Assembly (NCBI GenBank): GCA_964351975.1
Contig: CAYGPK010000001.1
Coordinates: 85,270-149,269, forward strand
Direction: 5' to 3'
From: an uncultured Methanosarcinales archaeon
GTDB taxonomy: Archaea; Nanobdellota; Nanobdellia; Woesearchaeales; UBA583
Length of the DNA: 64,000 nt
Part shown: positions 12,038 to 59,926 of the stretch, piece by piece
Layout: every line of letters begins with the position of its first letter
Numbering within the stretch: position 1 is the first letter of the stretch
The notes under the pieces: generated by a model
What the model was told of the DNA's origin: nothing
Database searches by the model: none
What the model saw: only the letters and a program-made list of their open reading frames with translations
Program-made: the position numbers and the translations under genes

Positions 12038-12136
12038 AATTCTTTTTTTCCCCTTCGTAAAAAAGAATATAACAACAATTTTTTTTAAATATAAAAATTC
12101 TTGGAACATTTTTTTCCCTTCGTGAAAAAGAATATT
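12038..12136 (+). repeat. two copies of 'ttttttcccttcgtRaaaaagaatat', each forming an AT-stem hairpin. Terminator/promoter region between 11157..12035 and 12170..13705.
   Basis: Copy 1 at 12038..12070 (stem attctttttt / aaaaaagaat, loop tccccttcgt). Copy 2 at 12108..12136. A TATA-like 'atttataaa' at 12135..12143 lies inside the palindrome aagaat-atttataa-attctt. Confidence 0.4.
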
Positions 12137-12169
12137 TATAAATTCTTTTTTTTATAAAATAGTATAATA

Positions 12170-17463: not shown

Positions 17464-17475
17464 ATTACTTAAGTA

Positions 17476-17624
17476 TTTATCAATATATTTTCAAATAAAC
17501 CTTTTTTCGACGATTTTTCTTTTCGCAGTTTTTAAGTTCCGTTGAATCGAGAACTTAAACCTAGAAAATCGTAAAAAAGCTTTACCAAAAAATGGTGTTT
17601 TTATCAATATATTTTTAAATAAAC
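17476..17624 (+). repeat. palindromic ~97-bp element (17501..17597) flanked by a 25-bp direct repeat (17476..17500 and 17598..17624; 24/25 identical; contains TATA-like tttttaaataaac)
   Basis: Outer stem cttttttcgacgatttt / aaaatcgtaaaaaag. Inner hairpin taagttc-CGTTGAATCGAG-gaactta. The second direct-repeat copy sits 17-28 nt upstream of ATG 17641. Confidence 0.6.
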
Positions 17625-17640
17625 TAGAACTTAATAAGTT

Positions 17641-17871
17641 ATGAAGTCAGAAGATATCAAACTTGAGGCAAAAAATATTATGGATAATTTTATGTCTGCT
17701 ATGAAAGATATTGAAGTAGAGAATGATTTTATATTAGAGAGAGAAAATTCTTTTCGAGTAGAAGGAGATGGAGATGAATTAGATGAGAGTTTTAAGCAAA
17801 GATTTTTAGCAAATGCTAAAAGAACAACTGGTGATGCTATTCTCGCAAATAAAGGTGAGTGGGAGAGATAA
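17641..17871 (+). CDS. small acidic protein, possibly GatC-like
   Basis: LERENSFRVEGD...FKQRFLANAK resembles the GatC 'LReD...eeaLaNAP' region. Weak. No gatA/gatB nearby. Confidence 0.3.
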   Translation: MKSEDIKLEAKNIMDNFMSAMKDIEVENDFILERENSFRVEGDGDELDESFKQRFLANAKRTTGDAILANKGEWER

Positions 17872-18573: not shown

Positions 18574-19363
18574 ATTCTTGAATATCTTTTAGTGAGTATA
18601 TTCTTTTTGCATTTTTTTCAACATCATGAACTTTTAAAAGCCATTCTTCTTTAGGGTGAAATGGAGTTTTCCCAAAGTAGAGTTCTTTTGGAAGTATTTT
18701 TCTAATTGCTGTTTCATTTTTGTAGTTGGTATATTTTATTTTTACTTCTTCTTTTGCAAAGATTAGTATTTCAGGTAAAAGTTCTTCAAATTTATGAAGT
18801 ATTTTATGAGGGTTTCCATCATTTAAAACTTCAATACTATGAAATCCCCAACTAACTGCAAGTGATTTAACATTAACTTTATGAGCTTCTTTTAAATCTC
18901 CAAGCGTGTCTGTTATGAATAAACATTCTTCTGGTTTTAGATTATAATCCTTGAATAGCATTTTAAATTTTTCAACTTTAGAAGGATGTGTTTCTCTACC
19001 CATTATACTCTCAAAGTTTTTTTTTAAATCTACACTTTCAAGATACTTTGTTATTTTATTATTTCCTCCACTTGTTATTACATGTAGTTTAAATCTTTTT
19101 TTAAGGTTAGTAATAGTTTCAAAGATTGGTTCGAAAAAATGTTCTTCTTTTTTAAATCTTTGATTATGTTCAGAATCAAAACTCTCCATTGGTATTGTAT
19201 TAGTTGAGGTTTTAGGATTTTCGTAGACATTACTATTATGTAAATCCCTATATTCTTTTTCCTTCATTTTAGGATGGAAAACTTTAACTACTTCGTAATT
19301 CAATTTATAAGTATTGGCAATTACACCATCAAAATCAAAAATGACAGCTTTTAAATTGGTCAT
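18560..19363 (-). CDS. HAD-superfamily hydrolase with a C-terminal extension
   Basis: N-terminal VIFDFDGVIANT (HAD motif I). Confidence 0.7.
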   Translation of the reverse strand: MTNLKAVIFDFDGVIANTYKLNYEVVKVFHPKMKEKEYRDLHNSNVYENPKTSTNTIPMESFDSEHNQRFKKEEHFFEPIFETITNLKKRFKLHVITSGGNNKITKYLESVDLKKNFESIMGRETHPSKVEKFKMLFKDYNLKPEECLFITDTLGDLKEAHKVNVKSLAVSWGFHSIEVLNDGNPHKILHKFEELLPEILIFAKEEVKIKYTNYKNETAIRKILPKELYFGKTPFHPKEEWLLKVHDVEKNAKRIYSLKDIQEWFVK

Positions 19364-19422
19364 TTTTGGTCACCACAAAATATATTTTGTGATAAGTCGA
19401 ATATAATTGCTTTTAGAACCAT

Positions 19423-21828
19423 TTACTTTTTAGCAACTTTTTTAGTTGTAGTTTTTTTTGTTGCTGCTTTTTTAGTAGTTGCTTTTTTGGTTGTTGTTTT
19501 CTTTGTTGTTTTTTTTGCAGCAGGTGTAACAGGATTTGTGTTCACTTCTCCATTTCTAATTTGCATCATTGTTTTACATTTTGGATAATTATTACATCCT
19601 AAAAATTCACCATAAAAACTTTTTCTTAAGACCATTTGACCTTCATTACAATTAGGACAAGTCATTCCTTCTTCCTTATATTTTTTTTCACCTAATTCTT
19701 TTTCTTCTTCTTCAGGTGTATCTGGGTTCAAACAAACTTTTCTATAATTACCTTCAGACTTACCTGCTAGAAACCAAATTTTTCCATCATCATCTGTTGC
19801 ATCTTCTTCAAGGCCTTTAATGTAATTTACTTGAGGTGCATTAAATATAGTTTTACACTCGGGGTATTTATCACATGCAATGAATTTTTTTCTTGTTTTT
19901 CTTGCAGTTTTTAAAACTAAAGTTCCATCTTCACAATTTGGACATTTTGCAATTTTAGCAGCTTCAAATCTTGCAAGTTTAGATGCATCTGCTAATTTTT
20001 TCCCAAGTTCAATTTCATTTTTTCTAATGTCAGTTAAAATTTTTGTTAATTTTTCTTTAGCAGAATTTAAAACTTTTTCAGGTGTTGATTTTTCTTGTCT
20101 AATTAATTCCATCTCATCTTCAAATTCTCTTGTTAACTCTTCTTCAACTAAAGTAGGCACTTCATCTGTTAGAACAGAGTCCATTTGAAGACCTAATTCG
20201 GTAACTTTTATTGATTTATCAACAATGTACCCTCTATCTTTTAATTGTTCTAATATTGTTGCCCTAGTTGCCTTTGTTCCTAGATTTCTTTTTTCAAGTT
20301 CTTTAATAATTGATGCGTCAGTGTATCTTTTAGGCGGAGATGTTTCTTTTTCAATTTCTTCAATTTCATTATTAACAACTTCTGTTCCTTGATCTAATTT
20401 TGGAAGCTGTATATCCTCAAATTTTAAATAAGGCTCATACAATTCATGCCAGTTTTTTTCAACAGTTCTTGTTCCTTTTAATACAAAATTGTGAGAGTTG
20501 ATATCAATTGTTATTGTGTTTGTTTCACGAATTGCATCTTCACCAAATACAGCGAAAAATCTTTTCACAATTAAATCATACAATCTTGAATCTTGAGGGT
20601 TTTCAAATTGTTTCGGAACTTCACCTGTTGGATGAATTGCAGGATGCGCAGGGTCATCTTTATTTCCTTCTTTAGGTTTTATGTTAGGATTTATTTTTAG
20701 AACTTTATCTACAAGTTCTTTGTATTTAGATTGGGATTTTAATTTTAGTAATTTATCTTTTAAATCAAGTTCTTTTGGTAATTTTTGTGAAGAAGTTCTT
20801 GGATATGAAGTTACACCTTCAATATATAATTTTTGAGCAATTTCAAGTGTTCTTTTTGGGGAGAGTCCAAGCATAGTTGATGCCTCCATTTGTAGGGATG
20901 TTAAATCAAAAGGATAAGGAACTGCTTGTTTGAATTTTTTTGCAGTTATTTCTTTAATAGTTCCATTTTTATTTTGTGTTTCTGAAACAACTTTTTGTGA
21001 GAACTCTTTGTTAAAAATTTTGTATCTATCTATTGTTTTTTTAACTTCTCCATCTTCATTTTCCTCGTCAAGTTGATGCTCTTTTGCAATGTCAAGAGGA
21101 AGTTCATATTGCGCCTTTATATTTACTGATTTACAATTTCCATCTAAATAAATCTCTGTAAATGATTCTGGTTGAAACGCTTCAATTTTTCTTTCTCGAT
21201 TTGCAAGAAAGTGAAGTGTTGGCGCTTGAACTCTTCCAGTTGATAGAACTTTGAATTGATTTGTTCCTTTTTTTATACTCTCAGTAAATGCCCTTGATAA
21301 ATTAATTCCATAATACCAATCTAAGGTATGTCTTGTTTCTCCTGCTTTTGCTTGACCCCACTCAAGATGTTTTTGTTTGTTTTCATATGATTTAATAAGT
21401 TCATTTTTAGTTAGAGTTGAGAATTTCATTCTATTTGCATCTTCACGACCTAAGGCATATCTTACAATATTTAGCCCAATAACTTCACCTTCAATATCAA
21501 AGTCTGATGCAATTGTTACTTCATCTGCTCCTTTTCCTAGATTAATTAAATTGTTAAGATAGTCTTTTGTATATGCCGCGGCTTTATTTGTTTTATATGT
21601 TGCTTTCCACTCTGTATTAAAAACAGGATACTCCCAACTTTCTCCACCTTTTTCTCCAAGTCCATATAAATGTCCAACTGCTGATGCTACAATTATTTTT
21701 TTACCGTTATGTGTTAATTCAAAATTGTTAACTTTATCTCTGGACTTTTTAGCAGAAGTATCTGCTAGTGCTTCTGCAATTTTTTGCGCTGCTTGTGGTT
21801 TTTCAGAAATGATTAACTCATAGGACAT
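19423..21828 (-). CDS. topA: DNA topoisomerase I (type IA) with C-terminal zinc ribbons and a Lys/Thr-rich tail
   Basis: Toprim N-terminus and the active-site motif GVTSYPRTSSQ. Two zinc ribbons (CPNCEDG...CDKYPECK and CPNCNEG...CNNYPKCK). Tail AAKKTTKKTTTKKATTKKAATKKTTTKKVAKK. Strong SD (aggagg) upstream. Confidence 0.9.
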   Translation of the reverse strand: MSYELIISEKPQAAQKIAEALADTSAKKSRDKVNNFELTHNGKKIIVASAVGHLYGLGEKGGESWEYPVFNTEWKATYKTNKAAAYTKDYLNNLINLGKGADEVTIASDFDIEGEVIGLNIVRYALGREDANRMKFSTLTKNELIKSYENKQKHLEWGQAKAGETRHTLDWYYGINLSRAFTESIKKGTNQFKVLSTGRVQAPTLHFLANRERKIEAFQPESFTEIYLDGNCKSVNIKAQYELPLDIAKEHQLDEENEDGEVKKTIDRYKIFNKEFSQKVVSETQNKNGTIKEITAKKFKQAVPYPFDLTSLQMEASTMLGLSPKRTLEIAQKLYIEGVTSYPRTSSQKLPKELDLKDKLLKLKSQSKYKELVDKVLKINPNIKPKEGNKDDPAHPAIHPTGEVPKQFENPQDSRLYDLIVKRFFAVFGEDAIRETNTITIDINSHNFVLKGTRTVEKNWHELYEPYLKFEDIQLPKLDQGTEVVNNEIEEIEKETSPPKRYTDASIIKELEKRNLGTKATRATILEQLKDRGYIVDKSIKVTELGLQMDSVLTDEVPTLVEEELTREFEDEMELIRQEKSTPEKVLNSAKEKLTKILTDIRKNEIELGKKLADASKLARFEAAKIAKCPNCEDGTLVLKTARKTRKKFIACDKYPECKTIFNAPQVNYIKGLEEDATDDDGKIWFLAGKSEGNYRKVCLNPDTPEEEEKELGEKKYKEEGMTCPNCNEGQMVLRKSFYGEFLGCNNYPKCKTMMQIRNGEVNTNPVTPAAKKTTKKTTTKKATTKKAATKKTTTKKVAKK

Positions 21829-22000
21829 TGTTTATTCCTCCTTGAGTTAATTGTCCAAAAATTCTATTTGCACATAAATTAAAATTTATGGCATGCCAAA
21901 AATAATTAATTTTTGAGCATTTGAGAATAATTAATTCGTAAGTCATATGTATATATTTTAGAAAGGTTTTTATAAAAGTTTGTCTTAGCAATAATATAAT

Positions 22001-35462: not shown

Positions 35463-38132
35463 TTAGTTTTCAAAGAAATGATATTTATCTTGTATGAAAT
35501 TACCAAGTGTGTTTAGTAAAAATACTATTAATGTTGCTCCAAGTATCATTGTCCAATCTGTAAATCCTAAAAATACGGTTCCAAAGAAAATATTAATAGG
35601 AGTGTAAATTACAATTAATTGTAATATTAATGAAATGCATACTGCCCATACTAAATAGGGATTTGAGAATGGACCTAAATTATATTCTGTTCTAATTGCT
35701 TGAAGCCGAACTAGTTCCATTACGATAATTGCTGTAAATGCTATTGTTTGAATTTTTTCTAAAGAAAAACCTTTATTTTGTGCCCATACAATTAGAGCAA
35801 GAATTGCAATAGTTATTAGAATACCAACATAAACTACGTGAAACATCATTTCCTTATCCATAATTCCTTCTGAGGCTTTTTTAGGGGGCTTTGACATTAA
35901 CTTATCAGATTTAGGATCAGCACTTAGAGCAAGAGCAGGTAGTCCATCTGTTACAAGGTTTAACCATAAAAGCATAATTGCAGTCATAGGTAGAGGAAGT
36001 CCAAGTACTATTGCAAAGAAAATTAATAGTACTTCTGCTAAATTTGAAGAGAATAAATAGTTTACAAATTTTTTAATGTTTTCATAAATTCCTCTTCCTT
36101 CTTCAACGGCATTTACAATACTTGTGAATTTGTCATCAAGAAGAATCATCTCTGATGATTCTTTAGCAACATCTGTCCCATTTATACCCATTGCAATTCC
36201 CATATCAGCAGCTTTAATTGCAGGTGCATCATTTACTCCATCACCAGTCATTGCAACAACTTCACCTTGCTCTTGAAGAAGTTTTACTATTTGCATTTTA
36301 TGAATAGGTTCAACTCTTGCAAAAATTCTTATTTTTTTTATTATTTTCTTTTTTTCAGATTCAGAGAGTTTTGCAAAGTCTTCTCCATTCATAGATTCAC
36401 CTACAATTCCTATTTCTTTACCAATTGCAGCTGCTGTAATCTTATTATCACCAGTTATCATTATTACTTTAATTCCTGCAGTATTACATTTTGCAATTGC
36501 TTCTTTAACATCTAAATGAGGTGGGTCAATCATTGCTTGAAGTCCAACAAATATTAAATTAGATTCATTTTTTTCTTTTGAATTATATATTTTATATGCA
36601 AACCCTAAAACTCTTAGAGCAGAGCTTGCATAATTTTCATTTTGTTTTAGAATAGCTTTTTTATCAGAATCGTTTATGTTTCTAATTTTTCCATTGTCAA
36701 GAATTTTTTTACAAATTTTTAGAACTTGTTCTGGTGCTCCTTTAGTATGAACAATTTTTTCTTTTGTTTTACTATTTTCATTAATTGTACTCATTAATTT
36801 TCTATCAGAATCAAATGGTTCTTCATCTATTTTTTTCCAAAGTTTATTTGTTTCATCAAGATTAAAATCTGCTTTTTTTGCTGAAACTAAAAGAGCACCC
36901 TCAGTTGGATCTCCCGTTATTTTCCATAAATTTTTTTCTTTTAGAAGTGAAGCTGAATTACAAAGAAGTCCAATTCTAAATATTAGATTATCAATTTTTT
37001 TTGAAAGTGTTCCTTGTGGATTATATCCAATACCATCAATTTCACATTCAGAATCAATAGTCCAAACTTTTCTAACGGTCATTTGATTTTTAGTTAGTGT
37101 TCCAGTTTTATCAGTACATATAACTGTTGTTTCACCAAGTGTTTCAACTGATGGTAGTTTACGAATAAGTGCATTTTTTTTAACCATTGCTTTAACACCA
37201 AGAGCAAGAGCGATTGTAACAATTGCAGGAAGGCCTTCTGGAACTGCAGCAACAGCAAGGGAAATTGCAGTTAGAAACCAGTCTTTAGATGCAAAAACAA
37301 ATTCAGAGAATTGTCCTGAAAATAGAAGAGGAAGATAACCATCTTTAGTTACACCAACAATAAATATAATAGCACAAATAGCAAGAGTTGCACTTGCAAC
37401 CCATTTTCCAAATTGTTCTAATTTTTTTTGAAGTGGAGTCATTTCATTTTCAGTTGTATTTAGAAGATTTGCAATTTTTCCAATTTCGGTTTCCATTGCA
37501 ATTGAAGTTACTATTGCTCTTCCTTTTCCTTTTGTAATTATTGTTCCTGAAAACAACATATTTTTTCGATCAGCAACAGTTAAGTTCCCTTTTATTTCAT
37601 CTACTTGTTTAGATACTGGAACTGATTCCCCTGTTAACGCTGCTTCTTCAACACTTAGATTTTTACACTCAATAATTCTACAATCAGCAGGAATTTTATC
37701 TCCTTCTTCAAGAATTACAATATCACCTGGAACTAGTTCACTTACATCAATTTGTATTATTTGTTCATTTCTAAGTACTCTTGTTTTTAATGCGGAGATT
37801 TTTCTTAGAGCTTCTATTGATTTTTCTGCTCTGTACTCTTGTAAAAATCCAAACACCGCATTGAATACTAAAATAATTAAAATAATAATTGCCTCTGTGT
37901 ATTCTTTAGAGATAAAGGAGATTATAACTGCAAAGATTAAAATGTATATGATGAAACTTTTAAATTGATTGATGAATAGAATAAATGGATTTATTTTTTC
38001 TTTTTCAGTAAGTTTATTTTCTCCATATTTGTTTTGTCTAGTTTTAACTTCAGATGGAGAAAGTCCTGTTTGAGAATTGGATTTTAATTCTTTAATTGTA
38101 TCATTATAAGAGAGGTTGTAATAGTTTAACAT
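35463..38132 (-). CDS. P-type cation-transporting ATPase (P2/Ca2+-type)
   Basis: [10 protein letters not shown] phosphorylation site and [26 protein letters not shown] present. 889 aa. Confidence 0.9.
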
Positions 38133-38216
38133 AGATATTTCTTAAGAAATGGATTTATAATAATTTATACTTATCTTAGAGTTAGAATATTAAAAAGATT
38201 AAATATATATTATTAA

Positions 38217-38486
38217 TTAACAAATATTTGTGTGGTGCTCATACATTAATGCAACGTCACCATCTTCGATAATTAAAAGATTTTGAATTTCAGTTTTAAT
38301 ATCAACTGAATCTACTCTTTTACTTTTTTGAATTAATTCATCAATTGCAATTGTAATTTTAGTTGCAATTTCTTCAGCTCTTTGTTCATTTAAATGAGCA
38401 TTAATTGCAGATGCGTAGACGGTTGTGTAAATTTTTTTCTCGTCATACTTTTCTGCGTGCCCCCCTCTTTTAACTACTATTACCAT
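38217..38486 (-). CDS. ATP-cone domain protein
   Basis: MVIVVKRGGHAEKYDEKKI...VALMYEHH matches the ATP-cone (NrdR N-terminal) pattern. Confidence 0.55.
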   Translation of the reverse strand: MVIVVKRGGHAEKYDEKKIYTTVYASAINAHLNEQRAEEIATKITIAIDELIQKSKRVDSVDIKTEIQNLLIIEDGDVALMYEHHTNIC

Positions 38487-38497
38487 ATTTTTTTCTT

Positions 38498-38538
38498 TAT
38501 TTTTAGTTTAAATTAATTGTTCCATTTGCAATCAACAA
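38498..38538 (-). repeat. diverged duplicate of the ccdA 3' end, encoding the same C-terminal peptide (L)LIANGTINLN*
   Basis: The reverse-strand translation of 38503..38538 gives LLIANGTINLN-stop. It differs from the real gene end (38573..38608) only by synonymous changes, and is out of frame with ccdA. Confidence 0.55.
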
Positions 38539-38572
38539 AAATCTTAGATTTTTGAGATCACAAATTTCACTT

Positions 38573-39277
38573 TTAGTTAAGGTTGATAGTTCCATTTGCA
38601 ATTAATATTAATAACCAACCTAGACCAATTAATAATAATCCTGTGAAGTATCTCATATAGGATTTATTTGATTGTTTCCAATTTTGAACTTTTTGAATTT
38701 TAACACCAAAGTATACCATAAGTACAATTATAATTAATGGTAATACAAATATGAAATTGTATATCATAAGTAATATTAATGCACTCATGTCAAAATTTTC
38801 TTTAAGTATTAAAAGAATTGCAAGGTAAGGTCCACCAGTACAAGGTAGTTCTACAGCTGCAACAAATGCTCCTAAAAAGATAACTGTTCCAACAGAAACA
38901 TTTTGCATTTTTTCTTGAATTTTCTTTGCATATTTTGGAGGAATATGAAGTGAAACTCCTTCCCCATACCAAAAATAATCTTTCATTTCAAGAATTCCTG
39001 CTATAACTACAATTATTCCTACAAATATTGAAATATACTCTGCAACCCAAATTGGAATTGCTGATAGGAATGCTAGAACTCCGAATCCTAGTACGAAGTA
39101 TGTAATATATACTGCAGCAATATATAGTGCTCCAATCTTTAGCATTTTACTTTTTTGTTTTGTAACAAGTAGAGTTGATAACAATAAAATTAAAACTCCT
39201 ATAGCACAAGGATTTATACTATCAATTAATGCTGTAAAAATGATAGTTGTTAATGTTGGTAATGCGATTTCTACCAT
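38573..39277 (-). CDS. ccdA: cytochrome c-type biogenesis/thiol-disulfide transporter CcdA (DsbD transmembrane-domain family)
   Basis: Conserved NPC (IDSINPCAIG) and PCT (VELPCTGGPY) cysteine motifs in a 6-TM protein. Confidence 0.7.
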   Translation of the reverse strand: MVEIALPTLTTIIFTALIDSINPCAIGVLILLLSTLLVTKQKSKMLKIGALYIAAVYITYFVLGFGVLAFLSAIPIWVAEYISIFVGIIVVIAGILEMKDYFWYGEGVSLHIPPKYAKKIQEKMQNVSVGTVIFLGAFVAAVELPCTGGPYLAILLILKENFDMSALILLMIYNFIFVLPLIIIVLMVYFGVKIQKVQNWKQSNKSYMRYFTGLLLIGLGWLLILIANGTINLN

Positions 39278-39349
39278 CTTACTTACTCACCTCATACATC
39301 TGATTGTGATTGTGTTTAAAACAAAGATTAGTGATTTGCGATGTTAGTT

Positions 39350-40117
39350 TCATTGTTGCACCTCAACAAGACCTTGTCCATCTATATATTGCCATCCTTC
39401 TCCCATCCAACTTGGTTGATTAAACTTCTCTTTTCTAAGTTCTTTGAAATTTTCATAGTTCCAACTATTTGCAGCCCAGAAGTCACAAATTTTAGTTGTT
39501 GTATCGGGTAAGTTAGGTCCAAATTCAATTATAACACAATCACCTGGAGGCATACTTCCATGAGGGTAATACATATAAGTTTCTACATTATTGATTTTTT
39601 GTCCATTCACATAAACTTTTAATTGAGAAGGTTGTCCATTACAAGAATCTCCACTTTTAACATTAACATCTTCTCCGTTTTCAACAAGATATGCGAATTC
39701 ATTTGTAGTTAATTTCCCACCAACAGTTCTAAAAAATGAGGATAAAGTTACATCATCCATATTTGAAACTGTTCCTTCAACATGAATTCTATCGTCATTG
39801 TGTTCGTGAAATAAAGGAGTTCCAATTTTATTTGAGAGTCCAGTTGGATCAATTAAATCTTTTCTTTCTCCACAAACCCAAACTTGATAATCTGCGTGCC
39901 AGTGAATTGGTCCACCAGTTACTGATTTTATATTTTTGTATACTGTATTTCCTGCTAAATAAAGAGTTGGAAGTAAAACAATAATTACAATAAATATAAA
40001 AATACTTTTTTTAAATTTGGTCATAAATTTTTCTTTTGCAAATAAGACTACAATAGTTATAACTACAAGTAGAATTGCTGCAATTTCTATATATAATACT
40101 GGATTTGTTAATTTCAT
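39350..40117 (-). CDS. secreted/membrane-anchored hypothetical protein
   Basis: N-terminal TM and a Cys/His-containing extracytoplasmic domain. 4-nt overlap with the upstream small membrane ORF. Confidence 0.45.
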   Translation of the reverse strand: MKLTNPVLYIEIAAILLVVITIVVLFAKEKFMTKFKKSIFIFIVIIVLLPTLYLAGNTVYKNIKSVTGGPIHWHADYQVWVCGERKDLIDPTGLSNKIGTPLFHEHNDDRIHVEGTVSNMDDVTLSSFFRTVGGKLTTNEFAYLVENGEDVNVKSGDSCNGQPSQLKVYVNGQKINNVETYMYYPHGSMPPGDCVIIEFGPNLPDTTTKICDFWAANSWNYENFKELRKEKFNQPSWMGEGWQYIDGQGLVEVQQ

Positions 40118-40368
40118 TTTTTTTTAATTTTAATATGTTTTCCAATAACCATTAATGTTAATGTATAAATTCCCCAAGCTATTAAAAGCCAGAGACCTAT
40201 AATTAATATCCCATAAAAGTCATAACCATGAGAAAAATATTCAAAAGGATTTATACCTCCTGAAAATACTTCTTCTTCCCCATTATGAGCATAAGTAAGA
40301 CTTAAGGTTGTAAGTGTACTTAGTATATAACTAATAATTTTTTTCATTTTAACAAAAAGGACATGCAT
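40114..40368 (-). CDS. small membrane protein
   Basis: Signal-like N-terminus plus a C-terminal TM. Translationally coupled (ATGA overlap) to the downstream gene. Confidence 0.35.
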   Translation of the reverse strand: MHVLFVKMKKIISYILSTLTTLSLTYAHNGEEEVFSGGINPFEYFSHGYDFYGILIIGLWLLIAWGIYTLTLMVIGKHIKIKKK

Positions 40369-40495
40369 CTTCTTCTTTTTTGGAATCGTGCTTATGTTTA
40401 TCTTCTTTTTTAGGTTTTTCTGCCATATAAGATATTTTGGAGTTTTAAGGTTTATAAATATTTATTGTAAAGTTATAGTTATTACAGATTAGAAT

Positions 40496-41269
40496 TTAGT
40501 TAGTTTCTAAGATAATAGGATAATGATCTGATCCAAGAGAATTAGAATTAACTTTTTTATTTTTTATTTTTATAGGAATTGGAGTTAGTATATGATCAGT
40601 TTGATTTTTTATTTTAACTATAGTAGAATTATTTTTAAAATTGTTTATTAATTTATATTTTTTAAATATTTCTTCAAATTTTTTTCTTTCATTGATAAGA
40701 AAAGCTTCTTTAAAGCTATGTTCTATAAAAAAACTAAATGGTTTAACAAATTTGTTTTCTATAATATTAAAATCACCAGTTATTATATTGAAATTTTTTT
40801 CTGATAAGTTATCAATTATTTTATTAAATTGATTAATTCGTCTATTAATTCCTGAAACTAATTTTAGTCTTGCATTGTGAATCCTATATTTTTCATTTTT
40901 TATTTCAGTTTCAATATATATGGCTCCATTTCCAAAGTTTGATTTAGACCACCCAAATTGTTTTAATAAGAATATTACAAATAAAGATCTGGTTTTATAT
41001 TTGAATTTTTCAGAGATAATATATTCTTTTTTTTTGTTGATTTTGGTTTTAGATAGAATTACAAGATATAATTTTATTTTTTTATTTTCTACAAATGTAA
41101 AAGTATCTAGATCATAAAAGATGTAATAATCCAGTTTTTTTAATTTATTTAAAAATTCAACAGTAACTTCTTGTAGGGAGCAAATGTCTGGGGACTCAGT
41201 TTTTATAAATTCAATTATCTTATTGTGATTTTTGTTAGAGAATAAAACATTGAAACTTATAATTTTCAT
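40496..41269 (-). CDS. endonuclease/exonuclease/phosphatase (EEP) family protein
   Basis: N-terminal MKIISFNV...ICSLQEV and C-terminal SDHYPI motifs typical of the EEP fold. Confidence 0.65.
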   Translation of the reverse strand: MKIISFNVLFSNKNHNKIIEFIKTESPDICSLQEVTVEFLNKLKKLDYYIFYDLDTFTFVENKKIKLYLVILSKTKINKKKEYIISEKFKYKTRSLFVIFLLKQFGWSKSNFGNGAIYIETEIKNEKYRIHNARLKLVSGINRRINQFNKIIDNLSEKNFNIITGDFNIIENKFVKPFSFFIEHSFKEAFLINERKKFEEIFKKYKLINNFKNNSTIVKIKNQTDHILTPIPIKIKNKKVNSNSLGSDHYPIILETN

Positions 41270-41316
41270 ATTAATACTTTGGGTTTAAGATTTATATTAC
41301 TTTCTTTTATTTAGAA

Positions 41317-41346
41317 AGCGGCAAGACTGAGATTTGAAGTCTTAGA
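41317..41346 (-). repeat. partial duplicate of the tRNA-Ser 3' end (acceptor 3' strand plus T-loop; non-functional T-stem)
   Basis: ga[ag]agcggcaagactg[ag]gatttgaa is shared with 41424..41450 (25/27 identical). In the duplicate the T-stem pairing is destroyed. Confidence 0.6.
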
Positions 41347-41428
41347 GTGAAACGACGAGATACCAAAAATTATTATATAATTTCTAAGAAATAATTTTTG
41401 AGTACCAGAATGTAATTCTGGGTGAGAG

Positions 41429-41510
41429 CGGCAAGACTGGGATTTGAACCCAGAATTCCAAAGGAACCACCTTTCCAGGGTGGCGCAATACCGGATTATG
41501 CGATCTTGCC
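41429..41510 (-). tRNA. tRNA-Ser (anticodon GGA), type II with a long variable arm and 3-bp D-stem
   Basis: Manual fold of the reverse complement. Acceptor stem GGCAAGA/TCTTGCC with discriminator G. Anticodon stem-loop CCACC-CTGGAAA-GGTGG. Variable arm TTCC-TTT-GGAA. T-arm CTGGG-TTCAAAT-CCCAG. No encoded CCA. Confidence 0.85.
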
Positions 41511-41626
41511 ATTATATTAGAATAATAAAATTAACTTGATTGGTTTTAAAAACATTTGGGAGAATTTAATATTAAGATAGCTTAAAAATACATTATATTT
41601 ATAAAAAACAACTTTATATTTATATT

Positions 41627-42160
41627 ATGAAATTAAATCCGAAGTATTCTTATGAGTTTAACTGTGTATTAAACTCAAATTATGATGAGAGCGAGCAAAT
41701 TAAAAATTTTACTTCATTAATTACTGACAAAGATAGATTTTTGATTTTATTACCTTTGTTAAACCATAATAGAGAGTTAATTGAGAAAGGTTTAGGTTAT
41801 ACTTTACCTGAAAATTTAGATTTTTTTATTGTAAGAGGTGAATTATTCAAATCATTTTCTGAGCCTATTACAGTTGAGTATTCAATTTTACCCGAGGAGA
41901 TGTTTTTATTTTTATTTAAAGAAATTTTGAAAGTTACCATCACTGATAGGTTTTTATCTGAGGAGTTAAGGGAGCAATATATTAATTCATTTATAGATTA
42001 TGTCTGTGTTAATGGAGAATTTGGAAAAAATGATTTTGTTAAGTTTACAAAAAATTTACATGATGAGAGTAAGAGACTTTTTCCAAATTATGAATTTAAA
42101 GAATATGATTTTTCAAATAAAACAATGCTGGATTATATATCAGAGATGTACGAAAACTAA
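41627..42160 (+). CDS. hypothetical protein
   Basis: Its stop is 2 nt from the start of lgt, so the two are probably co-transcribed. Confidence 0.4.
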   Translation: MKLNPKYSYEFNCVLNSNYDESEQIKNFTSLITDKDRFLILLPLLNHNRELIEKGLGYTLPENLDFFIVRGELFKSFSEPITVEYSILPEEMFLFLFKEILKVTITDRFLSEELREQYINSFIDYVCVNGEFGKNDFVKFTKNLHDESKRLFPNYEFKEYDFSNKTMLDYISEMYEN

Positions 42161-42162
42161 AA

Positions 42163-42903
42163 ATGGTTGACCCTGTTGCTTTTTCAATATTTGGCCTTGA
42201 AATTTATTGGTATGGTTTAACTTATGCAATAGGTTTTTTAGTTTCTTATTTTTTTATTATGCACTTTGGAAAAGCAATTGCCAAAAGAGAGATTTTAGAA
42301 GATTTATTTTTTTATTTTATGATTTTTTCAGTTTTAGGAGGAAGAGTCTTTGAAATTATTTTTTATGATTTAAGTTATTATTTAGCTGAGCCTATAAAAA
42401 TATTTTACGTTTGGGAAGGAGGGATGAGTATTCACGGGGGATTTTTTTTTGGAATGATTACTCTTTGGTATTTATGTAGAAAGTATAAAGTTGATTATTT
42501 AAAAATTTGGGATTTATTTTCTATTCCAACTGCATTAGGTCTTTCTTTTGGAAGACTTGCAAATTTTGTTAATCAAGAATTAGTTGGTAAAGTTACAACC
42601 TCTAATTTAGGGATAGTTTTTCCTTTATACGACAATCAAAATCGTTGGCCTACTACAATTTTTGAGAGTGTTAAAAATATGGCAACTTTTCAAATTATTT
42701 TGTATTTGAGCTTTTTTAAAAGTTTAAAACCTGGGATTTTAACAGCTTGGTTTTTTATATTATATGATTTTGGAAGATTCTTTATTAATTTTTTACGTGA
42801 ACCAACAGTTAGTTTAGGTTTTATTTCAATGGGGCAATTTTTATGTTTGATTTTTGGATTCTATGGAGTTTGGATGTTGTATAAGATTAACAAAAAAAAT
42901 TAA
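42163..42903 (+). CDS. lgt: prolipoprotein diacylglyceryl transferase
   Basis: GRLANFVNQELVG matches the Lgt signature G-R-[LIV]-[GA]-N-F-[LIV]-N-x-E-[LIV]-x-G exactly. 7-TM topology. Conserved YW..Y and HGG motifs. Confidence 0.8.
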   Translation: MVDPVAFSIFGLEIYWYGLTYAIGFLVSYFFIMHFGKAIAKREILEDLFFYFMIFSVLGGRVFEIIFYDLSYYLAEPIKIFYVWEGGMSIHGGFFFGMITLWYLCRKYKVDYLKIWDLFSIPTALGLSFGRLANFVNQELVGKVTTSNLGIVFPLYDNQNRWPTTIFESVKNMATFQIILYLSFFKSLKPGILTAWFFILYDFGRFFINFLREPTVSLGFISMGQFLCLIFGFYGVWMLYKINKKN

Positions 42904-51898: not shown

Positions 51899-52912
51899 AT
51901 GGCAATTGATAGTACTTATAAATCCAAAGTAAATCCTAGAAATAAAGAATTTGCAGATAAGATTAGAAATTTATCTAATAAATATTCAATTGTAGGTATT
52001 GTTGATGTTTCAGGTTTACCTGCACCACAATTTCAAAGAATTAGATCAAAAGTTAAAAAAACAGCAGAAGTTTTAATTGTAAAGAAAAATTTAATTGAAA
52101 TTGTTTTAAAGGAACTTGAAACTAAGTTTAAAGGTATTAGTGACTTAATTTCTAAAACTTCAGGAGTTGTAGGACTTGTTTTTACTAATGATAATCCTTT
52201 TACTTTATATAAATTTGTTAAAAAGAATAAATCAACAGCACCTGCTAAAGCAGGTCAAATTGCACCAAATAATATTGTAGTTCCAGCAGGACCAACTAGT
52301 TTTGCACCTGGGCCAATTATTGGTGAGTTAGGAGCTTTAGGAATTAAAGCAGGAATTACAGCGGGTAAAGTTGAAATTAAGGCAGACTCAGTTGTTGCAA
52401 AAGAAGGAGATGAAATATCAGCAGCTCTTGCTGGAGTTTTATCCAGACTTGGTATTGAACCTATGGAAGTTGGTTTAAATATTAAAGCTATTTATGAAGA
52501 AGGAACAATTTATGGAAGAGATATTTTAGATGTTGATTCAGATGCAATTCTGGCAGATCTTATAGGTGCTGCTAGTGATTGTTTCAACTTAGCTTTAGGA
52601 TTGCATTATCCAACTAAGGAGAACGTATCATTGTTAATTGGTTCTGCAGCGAGAGATTCTCTTGGTTTAGGAATTGGTGTTGCATATCCTGCTGCTGAGA
52701 CAATTAAGCAATTAATTACTAAGGCTGAGTCTCAAGGTTATGGGGTAGCATTATCCCTACCAGAAGATAACAGGCCTGCTGGGTTTGCTGTTAAATCAGC
52801 ACCAGTAGCAGAAAATAATAATGTTTCTGCTAATGAAGAGTCAAAACCAGAAGATAAAAAAGAAGAAGCTCCTGCAGCAGACATGTCTGCTGGCTTTGGA
52901 GGACTTTTTTAA
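51899..52912 (+). CDS. rplP0: 50S ribosomal protein L10 (acidic P0)
   Basis: Archaeal P0 with an Ala/Glu-rich C-terminus ending ...MSAGFGGLF. Confidence 0.9.
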   Translation: MAIDSTYKSKVNPRNKEFADKIRNLSNKYSIVGIVDVSGLPAPQFQRIRSKVKKTAEVLIVKKNLIEIVLKELETKFKGISDLISKTSGVVGLVFTNDNPFTLYKFVKKNKSTAPAKAGQIAPNNIVVPAGPTSFAPGPIIGELGALGIKAGITAGKVEIKADSVVAKEGDEISAALAGVLSRLGIEPMEVGLNIKAIYEEGTIYGRDILDVDSDAILADLIGAASDCFNLALGLHYPTKENVSLLIGSAARDSLGLGIGVAYPAAETIKQLITKAESQGYGVALSLPEDNRPAGFAVKSAPVAENNNVSANEESKPEDKKEEAPAADMSAGFGGLF

Positions 52913-52949
52913 AAATTATTTGAGATTAAATCTCATAAACTTATAAAAA

Positions 52950-53246
52950 ATGGAATACATATACGCTGCTATGCTTTTAAACAAAGCTGGGAAAAAAATT
53001 GAAGAGAAAGATATGACTGCAGTTCTTAAAGCTGCAGGTGTTGAGGCTGACGCTGCTAAAGTTAAGTCTTTAATTGCTGCACTTGATGGTGTAGATATTG
53101 CTCAAGTAATTGCTGATTCAGCTATGGTTGCTGCACCTTCTGCTGCTGCTCCTGCTGCATCTGCTGCATCTGCTCCTGCTGCTGAAGAGAAAAAGGAGGA
53201 AGCTCCTGCTGTTGACGCATCTGCTGGGCTTGGCTCATTATTTTAA
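52950..53246 (+). CDS. rpl12: 50S ribosomal protein L12 (P1 stalk protein)
   Basis: MEYIYAAMLLNKAGK... with Ala-rich hinge and tail ...EEAPAVDASAGLGSLF. Confidence 0.85.
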   Translation: MEYIYAAMLLNKAGKKIEEKDMTAVLKAAGVEADAAKVKSLIAALDGVDIAQVIADSAMVAAPSAAAPAASAASAPAAEEKKEEAPAVDASAGLGSLF

Positions 53247-53424
53247 TATTTTTATTTAATATTATTTTTTCAAATTTACGTCAAATATTAATAGGAATAT
53301 TAAATATTTTTATTATATTTTATAGTAAATAAACAAACAAACTAAACAAAATCATAAAAAATGGGAGAGACGCTCAAAAATTCGCTCTTTCACATTTTTT
53401 ATTAACAAAAAACATATATAAAAA

Positions 53425-59820: not shown

Positions 59821-59926
59821 TTGAGTGTGCAGTACTTGAGATTATCTCGAGTGCGAAGAACGGAAGAAATGTTTACATTTCTAATGAGGTTAAATTTGAA
59901 TCTGTAGTAAAAATATAGTGTATTTG
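59821..59926 (+). other. 5' strand of the 23S rRNA processing stem (pairs with 62747..62816)
   Basis: 59888..59926 (ggttaaatttgaatctgtagtaaaaatatagtgtatttg) is complementary to 62747..62779. 59821..59829 (ttgagtgtg) pairs with 62808..62816. The stem begins immediately after tRNA-Ala. Confidence 0.7.

What the first reader, a model, noticed from the sequence alone, without database searches (positions are those of the whole stretch)
38498..38610. Synonymously recoded duplicate of the last 11 codons of ccdA, 37 bp downstream of the real stop.
ccdA ends ...LLILIANGTINLN*, encoded at 38573..38611 on the minus strand. The segment at 38503..38538 encodes LLIANGTINLN* again. Its six nucleotide differences across the ten codons after LL (three Leu-codon substitutions, AAC/AAT, ATC/ATT, ACT/ACA) are all synonymous. 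It is out of frame with ccdA, so it is not a read-through. Random decay of a slippage duplicate should not be purely synonymous. The pattern instead suggests that the second copy once served as a coding gene end in a different lineage. One example would be an integrative element that targets the ccdA 3' end and carries its own version of the terminal codons, with the element body now lost. Another would be a recombination joint with foreign DNA. A second att-like duplicate, the tRNA-Ser 3' end, lies ~2.8 kb away.
Basis: partly seen in the sequence, partly recalled or inferred. Interest (0 to 1): 0.55.

Follow-up and report, generated by a model that had tools for sequence, protein, structure and literature searches.

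The report
Displaced old gene end beside ccdA
A tiny archaeon's membrane-protein gene carries a second, silently re-spelled copy of its last 11 codons 37 bases downstream. It is most likely a scar from a small piece of incoming DNA that brought its own gene end and pushed the original one aside, a known kind of event seen here without any surviving mobile element.

Summary
The ccdA-like gene (38573-39277, minus strand) ends LIANGTINLN*, and the same 11 codons recur at 38503-38535, 70 nt out of register.

- **Real, not artefact:** six nucleotide differences, all silent. This is not chance, and three assemblies agree.
- **Specific to this lineage:** none of about 170 related loci has a second ccdA end, including a relative 97% identical in protein.
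- **Which copy is older:** the downstream copy looks like the resident end. It uses this genome's preferred codons and sits next to the ATP-cone gene, which in relatives starts 1-8 nt after the ccdA stop. The working end uses atypical codons.
- **What lies between:** the 37-nt spacer plus the first bases of the downstream copy fold into a hairpin with a T5 run.
- **A parallel case:** tRNA-Ser, 2.8 kb away, has the same anatomy, and its displaced fragment keeps the flank seen in a relative.
- **Related loci:** silently recoded gene-end duplicates recur there. Some bracket cargo (HicA toxin, Fic, an ABC transporter), and none of the three inspected has an integrase.

Best reading (0.55): an att-like recombination scar of the icd/icdC kind, with no element body. 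Interest is moderate.

The parts
38573..39277 (-). ccdA-like membrane protein gene (234 aa; Pfam SfLAP PF11139; homologues are named CcdA by JGI and 'GAP family' by NCBI)
   Evidence: ORF. Pfam hit of 44 bits against a cut-off of 35. No NCBIfam hit. 6356 homologues, the closest 120 ending in ...LIANGTINLN or a near variant.
38573..38605 (-). Copy 1: the working gene end, LIANGTINLN*. Its last 19 nt (ACT ATC AAC CTT AAC TAA downstream of the core) use codons that are unusual for this genome.
   Evidence: ATC is used for 6% of Ile, AAC for 15% of Asn and CTT for 23% of Leu in the window. GC3 is 3/5 in this end against 0.14-0.15 for the ccdA body and the genome.
38589..38602 (-). 14-nt core ATTGCAAATGGAAC in copy 1, identical to the core in copy 2. 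Candidate crossover segment.
38536..38572 (-). 37-nt spacer with no relative in 172 other loci or elsewhere in the window
   Evidence: The best alignment to the downstream regions of 121 relatives is no better than for shuffled sequence (p=0.43).
38524..38565 (-). Hairpin. The outer 10-bp stem is ATTTGTGATC / GATTGCAAAT, whose 3' arm is the first 10 nt of copy 2 and includes 2 G.T pairs. A bulged T follows, then the inner 8-bp stem CAAAAATC-TAA-GATTTTTG, which contains a T5 run. Candidate terminator.
   Evidence: Fold z = -2.7 as RNA and -2.6 as DNA, with 2 of 200 shuffles folding as well. The motif CTCAAAAAT..ATTTTTG occurs 3 times in the window against 0.05 expected.
38503..38535 (-). Copy 2: the displaced, non-coding gene end (LIANGTINLN*), written in this genome's preferred codons
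   Evidence: It is 2-4 nt from the ends of L168, L170, L163 and L164.
38519..38532 (-). 14-nt core ATTGCAAATGGAAC in copy 2
38506..38517 (-). ATTAATTTAAAC inside copy 2, at -31..-20 from the ATP-cone ATG. A weak match to this genome's promoter box, at the canonical distance.
   Evidence: A position-weight matrix learned from 58 upstream regions gives A..TTTATAAA at -32/-33 for about half of the genes. This site scores 4.9 bits, a score reached by 15% of random 50-mers. No Shine-Dalgarno sequence lies upstream.
38217..38486 (-). Stand-alone ATP-cone protein gene (89 aa), the conserved downstream partner of ccdA
   Evidence: Pfam PF03477. Conserved gene order in many DPANN and CPR loci.
38607..38734 (-). 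128-nt tract with 1 mismatch to relative L165, against about 87% identity elsewhere in the gene. It ends where the repeat begins.
41428..41510 (-). tRNA-Ser(GGA), intact
   Evidence: ARAGORN and Rfam.
41339..41423 (-). 85-nt spacer after tRNA-Ser with two hairpins, one of them carrying the CTCAAAAAT..ATTTTTG motif
   Evidence: Fold z = -4.7, with 0 of 200 shuffles folding as well. Motif match.
41314..41338 (-). Displaced 3' fragment of tRNA-Ser, running from the T-loop to 5 nt past the gene end. It is followed by the flank CTTTCTAAAT, which relatives L168/L169 have directly after their tRNA-Ser.

Best explanation
This is a recombination scar with the anatomy of an attL/attR pair, but with almost nothing between the two sites.

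**Proposed event.** In the ancestor, ccdA ended with copy 2 and was followed closely by the ATP-cone gene. A piece of DNA that carried its own, separately evolved version of the ccdA end plus a short hairpin-bearing flank recombined with the chromosome inside the 14-nt stretch where the two versions were identical. The incoming end (the last 19 nt of copy 1) now completes ccdA. The 37-nt flank follows it. The resident end (copy 2) was pushed downstream and is no longer translated.

**Shown.**
- The duplicate is real and specific to this lineage.
- The two ends differ only silently.
- The downstream copy looks native by codon usage and by its position.
- tRNA-Ser, 2.8 kb away, has the same anatomy.
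- The same kind of scar occurs in related genomes.

**Inferred.**
- A single crossover took place in the core.
- The working end is of foreign origin.
- The present-day role: the hairpin with its T5 run may end ccdA transcription. The old end may supply a weak promoter box at -31 for a leaderless ATP-cone mRNA, splitting a pair of genes that relatives have almost abutting.

**Undecided.** I cannot tell whether a site-specific recombinase acting in trans or a homology/microhomology-driven event made the joint. I weight the two about equally.
For: - **Silent-only divergence.** Six differences, none changing the peptide or the stop; P = 2e-5 to 1e-3 under random substitution.
- **Bipartite pattern.** A 14-nt identical core is followed by changes in four of the next five sense codons.
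- **Working end is a compositional outlier.** GC3 is 3/5 against 0.14 for the genome, and it is about 19-fold less likely than copy 2 under the window's codon usage. The ccdA body is typical, with GC3 0.15.
- **Position in relatives.** The ccdA stop lies 1 nt (L163, L168) or 8 nt (L171-L175) before the ATP-cone start. The 97% relative L165 and about 170 other loci have no second copy.
- **tRNA-Ser parallel.** The displaced fragment starts at the T-loop and is followed by the flank CTTTCTAAAT, identical to the flank after tRNA-Ser in L168/L169. The intact tRNA is followed by new sequence.
- **Recurrence.** A peptide-level scan of 173 sequences (172 related loci plus the window) found 18 downstream gene-end duplicates against 1 decoy hit. 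Several are recoded mostly silently. Cargo between copies includes a HicA toxin (L159), a Fic protein (L150) and an ABC transporter (L042), with no integrase in these three.
- **Direction.** In 6 of 7 such cases the displaced end fits local codon usage better than the working end.
- **Local mosaicism.** ccdA is 97% and the ATP-cone protein 78% identical to L165, but the ATPase is only 54% identical. A 128-nt near-identical tract ends at the repeat.
- **Known precedent.** e14 integration into icd leaves the displaced end icdC, and excision swaps in silent changes (PMC13626634). Of 68 thaumarchaeal integrated elements, 14 sit in 3'-distal parts of protein genes (PMC6563490).
Against: - There is no element body. 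Only 37 nt lie between the copies, too short for an ORF.
- No integrase was found among the 20 window proteins scanned.
- No copy of the incoming end, the spacer, an attP-like junction or the tRNA end occurs in IMG/VR.
- No donor was identified. The nearest ccdA end in 121 relatives still differs from copy 1 at 5 of 33 nt.
- Similarity of copy 2 to relatives may partly reflect shared AT-rich codon preference rather than ancestry.
- The CTCAAAAAT..ATTTTTG hairpin motif is enriched in this genome (3 in 64 kb, against 1 in the 172 other loci). That suggests the spacers are home-grown rather than foreign.
- The codon-usage direction test is weak overall (6 of 7 cases, one-sided p about 0.06).
Confidence: 0.55

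Rival explanations
1. In-situ duplication. A template switch or slippage at the ccdA/ATP-cone junction copied the gene end and added a filler hairpin. Afterwards the coding copy changed only silently, because it is translated. The downstream copy stayed unchanged because it is young or constrained as a hairpin arm and promoter box.
For: - The left arm of the hairpin (ATTTGTGATC) is an imperfect reverse complement of the start of the repeat (GATTGCAAAT), as a fold-back template switch would leave.
- The hairpin motif is enriched in this genome.
- Other short-range duplications occur in the window's intergenic DNA (12044-12159 and 17473-17624).
- Copy 2 overlaps a weak promoter-like box at the canonical distance.
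- Any silent change away from preferred codons would make copy 1 look compositionally odd.
Against: - Only 47 of the 70 nt are repeated. The remaining 23 nt are unrelated, so this is not a simple tandem unit.
- Five or six silent changes in copy 1 imply a silent-site divergence of roughly 0.5. Over that time a free 33-nt copy 2 should have collected about 9 or more changes (my estimate). It shows no non-silent difference from copy 1.
- A promoter box and a 10-nt stem arm cannot constrain all 33 nt.
- The tRNA-Ser flank evidence and the cargo-bearing examples point to insertion rather than duplication.
Confidence: 0.22
2. Whole-gene replacement. A foreign ccdA allele, possibly with upstream genes, replaced the resident gene. 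It used homology on the left and an illegitimate microhomology joint on the right (homology-facilitated illegitimate recombination), leaving only the last 11 codons of the resident gene.
For: - ccdA is far more conserved between lineages (79-86% identity) than its neighbours (36-62%), and the gene cluster occurs in both DPANN archaea and CPR bacteria, which suggests frequent transfer.
- The region is a mosaic when compared with L165.
- There is an 8/10 microhomology between the hairpin arm and the start of the resident end.
- The mechanism is documented in transformable bacteria (PMC6382021, citing de Vries & Wackernagel 2002).
Against: - The ccdA body has the genome's normal codon usage, GC3 0.15.
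- ccdA and the first two-thirds of the ATP-cone gene are about equally diverged from L165 (85-88% nt identity), so there is no break in history across the junction.
- The compositional oddity is confined to the last 19 nt.
Confidence: 0.13
3. The second copy is translated, either through a +1 frameshift in ccdA that reads through the spacer to copy 2, or as a mini-ORF.
For: A 32-codon ORF (38503-38601, TTG start, +1 frame) runs from inside ccdA to the stop of copy 2. Translation would explain the silent-only differences.
Against: - All 120 closest homologues end with the same terminal peptide or a near variant, so none reads through to a second copy.
- The 23 inserted residues would be hydrophilic and would sit inside what is probably the last membrane helix (my inference).
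- No slippery site or conservation was seen.
- No other lineage has the arrangement.
Confidence: 0.03
4. Chance similarity or an assembly artefact.
For: The genome is AT-rich (about 27% GC) and low in complexity.
Against: - 0 of 100 simulations reach the observed repeat.
- Three assemblies from different runs are identical across the junction.
- Two diverged copies cannot arise from collapse or expansion of reads.
Confidence: 0.02

Closest known systems
e14 / phage 21 integration into the 3' end of icd in E. coli, leaving the displaced end icdC (Hill et al. 1989, as described in PMC13626634)
   Same: - A direct repeat of a protein gene's 3' end.
- The upstream copy completes the gene.
- The copies differ mainly by silent substitutions, because each has served as a coding end.
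- The downstream copy is a non-coding relic next to the original flank.
   Different: - e14 has a 15-kb body with an integrase between the copies. Here there are 37 nt and no recombinase.
- The repeat here is 33-47 nt.
- No excision, free form or attP has been seen here.
- The host is a DPANN archaeon.
Archaeal integrated elements in tRNA genes and in 3'-distal parts of protein genes (Thaumarchaeota survey, PMC6563490)
   Same: - The targets match: a tRNA 3' part starting at the T-loop, and a protein gene's 3' end.
- The repeat lengths (25 and 33-47 nt) fall within the reported att range of 8-69 bp.
- More than one type of target is occupied within one genome.
   Different: The reported elements have bodies of kilobases with recognisable mobile-element genes. 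Both scars here are essentially empty (37 and 85 nt).
Homology-facilitated illegitimate recombination during uptake of diverged DNA (de Vries & Wackernagel 2002, as summarised in PMC6382021)
   Same: - A conserved sequence (the ccdA 3' region or the tRNA) could serve as the one-sided anchor.
- There is a possible microhomology at the other joint.
- Short foreign DNA is inserted next to the anchor.
   Different: - It usually deletes recipient DNA rather than leaving a duplicate of the anchor's end.
- It has been shown only in naturally transformable bacteria.
- No donor is identified here.
Att-flanked remnants that have lost their integrase (cis-mobilisable elements derived from integrative conjugative elements; recalled from memory, not checked in the paper library)
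   Same: Flanked by att-type repeats, lack their own recombinase, and could depend on one supplied in trans.
   Different: Those elements are kilobases long and have been shown to be mobilised. Nothing here shows mobility.

Membership tests
attL/attR pair from site-specific integration into a gene's 3' end (icd-e14 type) | Direct repeat of the gene's 3' end, with the upstream copy completing the ORF | tested here: met
attL/attR pair from site-specific integration into a gene's 3' end (icd-e14 type) | An identical core flanked by diverged arms; both copies keep the coding sense | tested here: met
   14-nt identical core; 6 silent differences; P = 2e-5 to 1e-3.
attL/attR pair from site-specific integration into a gene's 3' end (icd-e14 type) | The distal copy is the host's own end, next to the host's original flank; relatives have an empty site | tested here: met
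   Relatives have the stop 1-8 nt before the ATP-cone gene. No second copy occurs in about 170 loci, including the 97% relative. Copy 2 uses native codons. The same holds for the tRNA-Ser flank.
attL/attR pair from site-specific integration into a gene's 3' end (icd-e14 type) | A mobile element body with an integrase or recombinase between the repeats | tested here: not met
   37 nt between the copies, too short for an ORF. No recombinase domain in the 20 window proteins scanned against Pfam.
attL/attR pair from site-specific integration into a gene's 3' end (icd-e14 type) | attP or the element seen elsewhere (free form or in other genomes) | tested here: not met
   0 hits in IMG/VR for the degenerate ccdA end, the spacer, the copy 1 end, the attP-like junction and the tRNA end.
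Simple tandem duplication by replication slippage | The whole unit is repeated head to tail, and the non-coding copy decays neutrally | tested here: not met
   Only 47 of 70 nt are homologous, and the rest match at 6/23. The differences are silent only.
Homology-facilitated illegitimate recombination | A one-sided homologous anchor, a microhomology joint, and identifiable foreign DNA | tested here: inconclusive
   A near-identical 128-nt tract to L165 ends at the repeat. There is an 8/10 microhomology. No donor was found.
Miniature palindromic mobile element (MITE-like) | Several copies sharing sequence over their length, terminal inverted repeats and short target duplications | tested here: not met
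   The motif CTCAAAAAT..ATTTTTG occurs 3 times against 0.05 expected. The four hairpin regions share nothing beyond that core.
CcdA (cytochrome c biogenesis thiol-disulfide transporter, DsbD family): the gene's name | A match to a curated CcdA/DsbD model | tested here: not met
   Pfam assigns SfLAP PF11139. There is no NCBIfam hit. The names 'CcdA' (JGI) and 'GAP family' (NCBI) come from the sources of homologues. Two Cys motifs (NPC, LPCTGGPY) are visible, but their function was not tested.

The most novel reading that the evidence does not exclude
In DPANN and CPR genomes, strongly conserved gene ends (ccdA, the ATP-cone gene, a Bud32-like kinase, a tRNA) may act as portable recombination sites for small cassettes that lack an integrase. 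Each cassette would arrive with its own silently recoded copy of the gene end and displace the resident one. Cargo would range from nothing but a terminator-like hairpin (this window, twice within 3 kb; L049; L058) to toxin-antitoxin, Fic or transporter genes (L159, L150, L042). That would be a cassette-exchange route for ultra-small genomes that does not need an element-encoded recombinase.
Probability: 0.18. Interest if true: 0.65.

Novelty: new member of a known kind. Interest (0 to 1): 0.4.

Why it matters
On its own this is a 70-bp scar, an ordinary kind of footprint found in an unusual host. It has three uses.

- **Evidence of DNA exchange.** It shows that a DPANN archaeon with a small, tightly packed genome exchanges DNA at the very ends of conserved genes.
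- **A detection method.** Silently recoded gene ends are a sensitive marker of insertion history. They can be found by peptide-level scanning even when the DNA similarity is weak.
- **A testable pattern.** The same scan turned up related cases that bracket toxin, Fic and transporter genes without integrases. If that pattern holds genome-wide, it points to an under-described way in which accessory genes enter DPANN and CPR genomes.

There is also a concrete local prediction. The insertion may have turned an abutting gene pair into two transcription units, with a terminator hairpin followed by a promoter box made from the old gene end. Transcript mapping could test this.

Tried and rejected
- **Assembly artefact: rejected.** Two independent Logan assemblies are identical to the window across the junction.
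- **Chance repeat: rejected.** 0 of 100 simulations reach it.
- **Neutral decay of a slippage duplicate: rejected.** The differences are silent only, and the unit is not fully repeated.
- **Donor search: nothing found.**
  - The spacer and the copy 1 end were searched in the window, in 172-175 loci and in IMG/VR, with no match beyond the same organism.
  - The nearest ccdA end among 121 relatives is still 5 nt away.
- **Spacer as a decayed ATP-cone 5' end or internal motif: rejected.** Alignment scores are no better than for shuffled sequence (p=0.43).
- **Whole-ccdA foreignness by composition: rejected.** GC3 of 0.15 is typical for the genome.
- **Closer strains via the ATP-cone protein: none.** Only the window's own protein and the L165 protein were found.
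- **Walking along the genome: little gained.** One flank added 5 kb with no further hairpin motif, and the other protein was not on record.
- **The hairpins as one mobile-element family: rejected.** They share no homology beyond a 9+7 nt core.
- **Copy 2 as a strong promoter: only weak support.** It scores 4.9 bits, although the distance is right.
- **Sigma-70 and intrinsic-terminator scan of the junction region: uninformative.** Promoter-like sites were at the chance level and there were no terminator-like sites; the scan is built for bacteria.
- **A link between the two scars through the inversion seen in L170** (ccdA next to p177-LGT)**: rejected.** The breakpoints do not coincide with the scars.
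- **An integron attC-like reading of the hairpin: dropped.** By eye I saw no R-box consensus. No IntI turned up in the limited Pfam scans, which did not target it.
- **An mRNA intron (bulge-helix-bulge) reading: dropped.** By eye the hairpin lacks that geometry.
Full report
**Setting.** The window comes from an AT-rich archaeon. It has an archaeal LSU rRNA at 59924-62747 and about 27% GC. The closest relatives are labelled Nano-, Woese- and Pacearchaeota. On the minus strand the order is tRNA-Ser, an EEP-family nuclease, p84, a 255-aa membrane protein, the ccdA-like gene, an 89-aa ATP-cone protein, a P-type ATPase, a metallophosphoesterase and MetRS. The 'ccdA' label is only partly backed. Pfam places the protein in SfLAP PF11139 and NCBIfam gives no hit. 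Homologues are called CcdA by JGI and 'GAP family' by NCBI.

- ccdA ends TTA ATT GCA AAT GGA ACT ATC AAC CTT AAC TAA (38605-38573).
- The stretch 38535-38503 reads TTG ATT GCA AAT GGA ACA ATT AAT TTA AAC TAA.
- Both encode LIANGTINLN*.
- The period is 70 nt, so the copies are out of frame. A 14-nt core is identical, and all six differences are silent.
- One codon further upstream the match breaks (ATA Ile vs TTG Leu).
- The repeat is the top direct repeat in the region. Nothing like it appears in 100 Markov simulations.
- Random placement of 5-6 substitutions keeps the peptide and stop with P = 2e-5 to 1e-3.
- Two independent Logan assemblies from different runs are identical across the junction.

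**Comparative picture.**
- The terminal peptide LIANGTINLN is nearly invariant in the 120 closest homologues. Any ccdA end that has been in use will therefore encode it.
- Among 172 related loci from genome and metagenome collections, none has a second copy.
- Relatives at 83-85% protein identity have the ccdA stop 1 nt before the ATP-cone ATG (L163, L168).
- L171-L175 have 8 nt between the two genes.
- L164 and the 97% relative L165 have 73 and 68 nt without any duplicate.
- Copy 2 is within 2-4 nt of the ends of L168, L170, L163 and L164, whereas copy 1 carries ATC and CTT, seen in none of the eight closest relatives.
- This resemblance is partly codon bias, because copy 2 uses the genome's preferred codon at nearly every position.

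**Which copy is the newcomer.**
- The ccdA body has ordinary codon usage (GC3 0.15).
- The five sense codons after the core in copy 1 have GC3 3/5.
- At the five silently differing codons, copy 1 is about 19-fold less likely than copy 2 under the window's usage.
- ccdA and the first two-thirds of the ATP-cone gene are similarly diverged from L165, at 85-88% nt identity. The history is therefore continuous across the junction, except for the 70 inserted bases.
- The odd piece is thus the last 19 nt of ccdA plus the 37-nt spacer, not the whole gene.

**The spacer.**
- It has no relative anywhere I could search.
- Together with the first 10 nt of copy 2 it folds into an 18-bp interrupted hairpin with a T5 run. 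The fold z-score is about -2.7, and 2 of 200 shuffles fold as well.
- This genome has a very regular promoter box, A..TTTATAAA, starting at -32/-33 from the ATG of about half its genes, which implies leaderless mRNAs.
- The ATP-cone gene has no Shine-Dalgarno sequence. Its best box, ATTAATTTAAAC, lies inside copy 2 at -31. The match is weak (4.9 bits) but correctly placed.
- The idea that the insertion split an abutting gene pair into terminator plus promoter is my inference. It has not been shown.

**The tRNA-Ser parallel.**
- The intact tRNA-Ser (41428-41510) is followed by an 85-nt hairpin-rich spacer (z = -4.7).
- A 25-nt copy of its 3' part follows, starting at the T-loop.
- L168/L169 have tRNA-Ser(GGA) upstream of the same gene cluster.
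- Their tRNA is followed by CTTTCTAAAT. In the window, that flank follows the fragment, not the intact tRNA.
- So here too the downstream fragment is the resident end and the working 3' end is new.
- Both spacers contain CTCAAAAAT...ATTTTTG, which occurs 3 times in the window against 0.05 expected and once in the 172 other loci. They share nothing else.

**Recurrence elsewhere.** I scanned the window and 172 related loci for ORF ends (the last 11 residues) repeated downstream in any frame. This gave 18 hits against 1 with reversed-peptide decoys.
- After setting aside paralogous domains and one repeat protein read from the opposite strand (L148), these cases remain: L027, L041, L042, L049, L058, L150 and L159.
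- Their differences are mostly silent: 4 silent and 0 non-silent in L027, and 5 to 1 in L049.
- L049 and L058 duplicate the ATP-cone gene end about 100 nt downstream, with hairpins in between.
- L159 has three copies bracketing a HicA toxin with an adjacent small ORF (no Pfam hit; HicB-like only by my reading) and a coiled-coil gene.
- L150 has a Fic gene between two ends of a Bud32/RIO-like kinase.
- L042 has an ABC transporter between two ends of a disulfide oxidoreductase.
- No integrase lies between the copies in L159, L150 or L042, the three cargo-bearing cases I inspected.
- In 6 of 7 cases the displaced end fits local codon usage better than the working end. This trend is weak.

**Mosaicism.** Against L165, ccdA is 97% identical, the ATP-cone protein 78% and the ATPase N-terminus only 54%. 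A 128-nt tract with a single mismatch (38734-38607) ends within a few bases of the repeat. Recombination with diverged DNA therefore happens here, and its tracts stop at the structural difference.

**Interpretation.**
- The silent-only divergence, the core-plus-diverged-arm pattern, the native look and position of copy 2, the tRNA parallel and the cargo-bearing analogues together favour insertion of DNA carrying its own gene end. This is the anatomy of attL/attR.
- The classic case is e14 or phage 21 in icd, which leaves icdC (PMC13626634).
- In archaea, 14 of 68 thaumarchaeal integrated elements sit in 3'-distal parts of protein genes and 39 in tRNA genes, with att sites of 8-69 bp (PMC6563490).
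- A defining feature of that family is missing. There is no element body, no integrase and no attP anywhere I could look. I therefore do not file this as an integrated element.
- A homology- or microhomology-driven joint (PMC6382021) would leave the same scar.
- The main rival is in-situ duplication with later silent recoding. The fold-back look of the hairpin and the lineage-specific motif favour it. It needs all 33 nt of copy 2 to have stayed frozen while half of copy 1's silent sites changed, which I find unlikely.

**Verdict.** The finding is real, specific to this lineage and non-random. It is an att-like recombination scar in which the old gene end survives as non-coding DNA, and it is a new example of a known kind. 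Interest is moderate. It rises if the integrase-less, gene-end-flanked cassettes seen in related loci turn out to be a general feature of DPANN and CPR genomes.

Noticed in passing
window 41314-41510 (minus); L168 186-480; L169 1248-1542: tRNA-Ser(GGA) is followed by an 85-nt hairpin spacer and a 25-nt copy of its 3' part. The flank after the fragment (CTTTCTAAAT) equals the flank after tRNA-Ser in relatives L168/L169, so the fragment is the displaced original end.
   Followed up: yes
L159 4721-6214; L150 4414-6263; L042 2858-6487; L049 6046-6182; L058 5950-6093; L041 850-1463; L027 10380-10677: Gene ends duplicated downstream, mostly with silent recoding, recur in related DPANN/CPR loci. Some bracket cargo with no integrase between the copies: a HicA toxin with a small partner ORF, a Fic protein, and an ABC transporter. 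Others bracket only hairpins.
   Followed up: partly
window 35463-40117 and many loci (e.g. L072, L080, L064, L146): The cluster of membrane protein, ccdA-like protein, stand-alone ATP-cone protein and P-type ATPase is conserved across DPANN archaea and CPR bacteria (Saccharimonadales and others). ccdA is far more conserved (55-86% identity) than its neighbours, which suggests cross-domain transfer of a functional module.
   Followed up: no
window 38607-38734 vs L165 605-732; window 37400-38132 vs L165 1192-1938: A 128-nt tract with one mismatch to L165 lies inside a gene that is otherwise about 87% identical. The adjacent ATPase is only 54% identical in protein. The region is a recombination mosaic.
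   Followed up: partly
window, upstream of about 30 of 59 genes: A very regular promoter box, A..TTTATAAA, starts at -32/-33 from the ATG, implying mostly leaderless mRNAs. A minority of genes have GGAGG/GGTGA ribosome-binding sites instead (e.g. ccdA itself and the gene at 19423-21828).
   Followed up: partly
window 21897-21917, 38536-38556, 41364-41402 (minus); also 19336-19368: Small hairpins of the form stem - bulged T - CAAAAAT..ATTTTTG - stem. There are 3 exact pattern matches against 0.05 expected in the window, and only 1 in the 172 other loci. They may be terminator-like elements specific to this lineage.
   Followed up: partly
window 17473-17624: Two 28-nt promoter-like copies (93% identical) flank a stretch of about 95 nt. 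That stretch folds well (z = -2.5) and has no Rfam family. It may be a small RNA gene with its own promoter upstream of the ORF that starts at 17641.
   Followed up: partly
window 12044-12159: An intergenic 51-nt direct repeat (76% identical, spacing 65) containing TTTTTTCCCCTTCGTAAAAAAGAATAT, upstream of the gene at 12170. It may be duplicated regulatory sites.
   Followed up: no
window 52850-52917 and 53184-53251: Two adjacent ORFs end with the same acidic tail, translating to about ...EEAPA..D.SAG.G.LF*. The tails are 68 nt long and 74% identical. By recall this matches the shared C-terminus of the archaeal ribosomal stalk proteins P0 and P1, but I did not check the genes' identity. If so, it is a case where a shared tail reflects paralogy rather than insertion.
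   Followed up: no
L165 1-98: The 97% relative's ccdA homology begins only at about codon 14. It is preceded by unrelated sequence that looks GC-rich by eye. This is either a chimeric contig or a rearrangement that truncates the gene.
   Followed up: no
L003 and L004 (two contigs of MAG DS_MAG177): Both contigs end inside ccdA, with the 639-nt match to the query running to the contig edge. This suggests an assembly-graph branch in the conserved 3' part of the gene, from strain variation or a repeat there.
   Followed up: no
L170 863-2887 vs window 38573-42903: In L170, ccdA is followed directly by the p177 and LGT genes. In the window those genes lie beyond tRNA-Ser on the other strand. The segment from ccdA to tRNA-Ser is therefore inverted between lineages.
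   Followed up: no
ATP-cone gene ends in 73 loci (e.g. L115, L105, L006): The tail (M/L)YETHRD(I/L)S* is highly conserved, and its Arg codon is mostly AGG even in genomes of 27-37% GC. This hints at a constraint at the nucleotide level on ...CAYAGGGAY...
   Followed up: no
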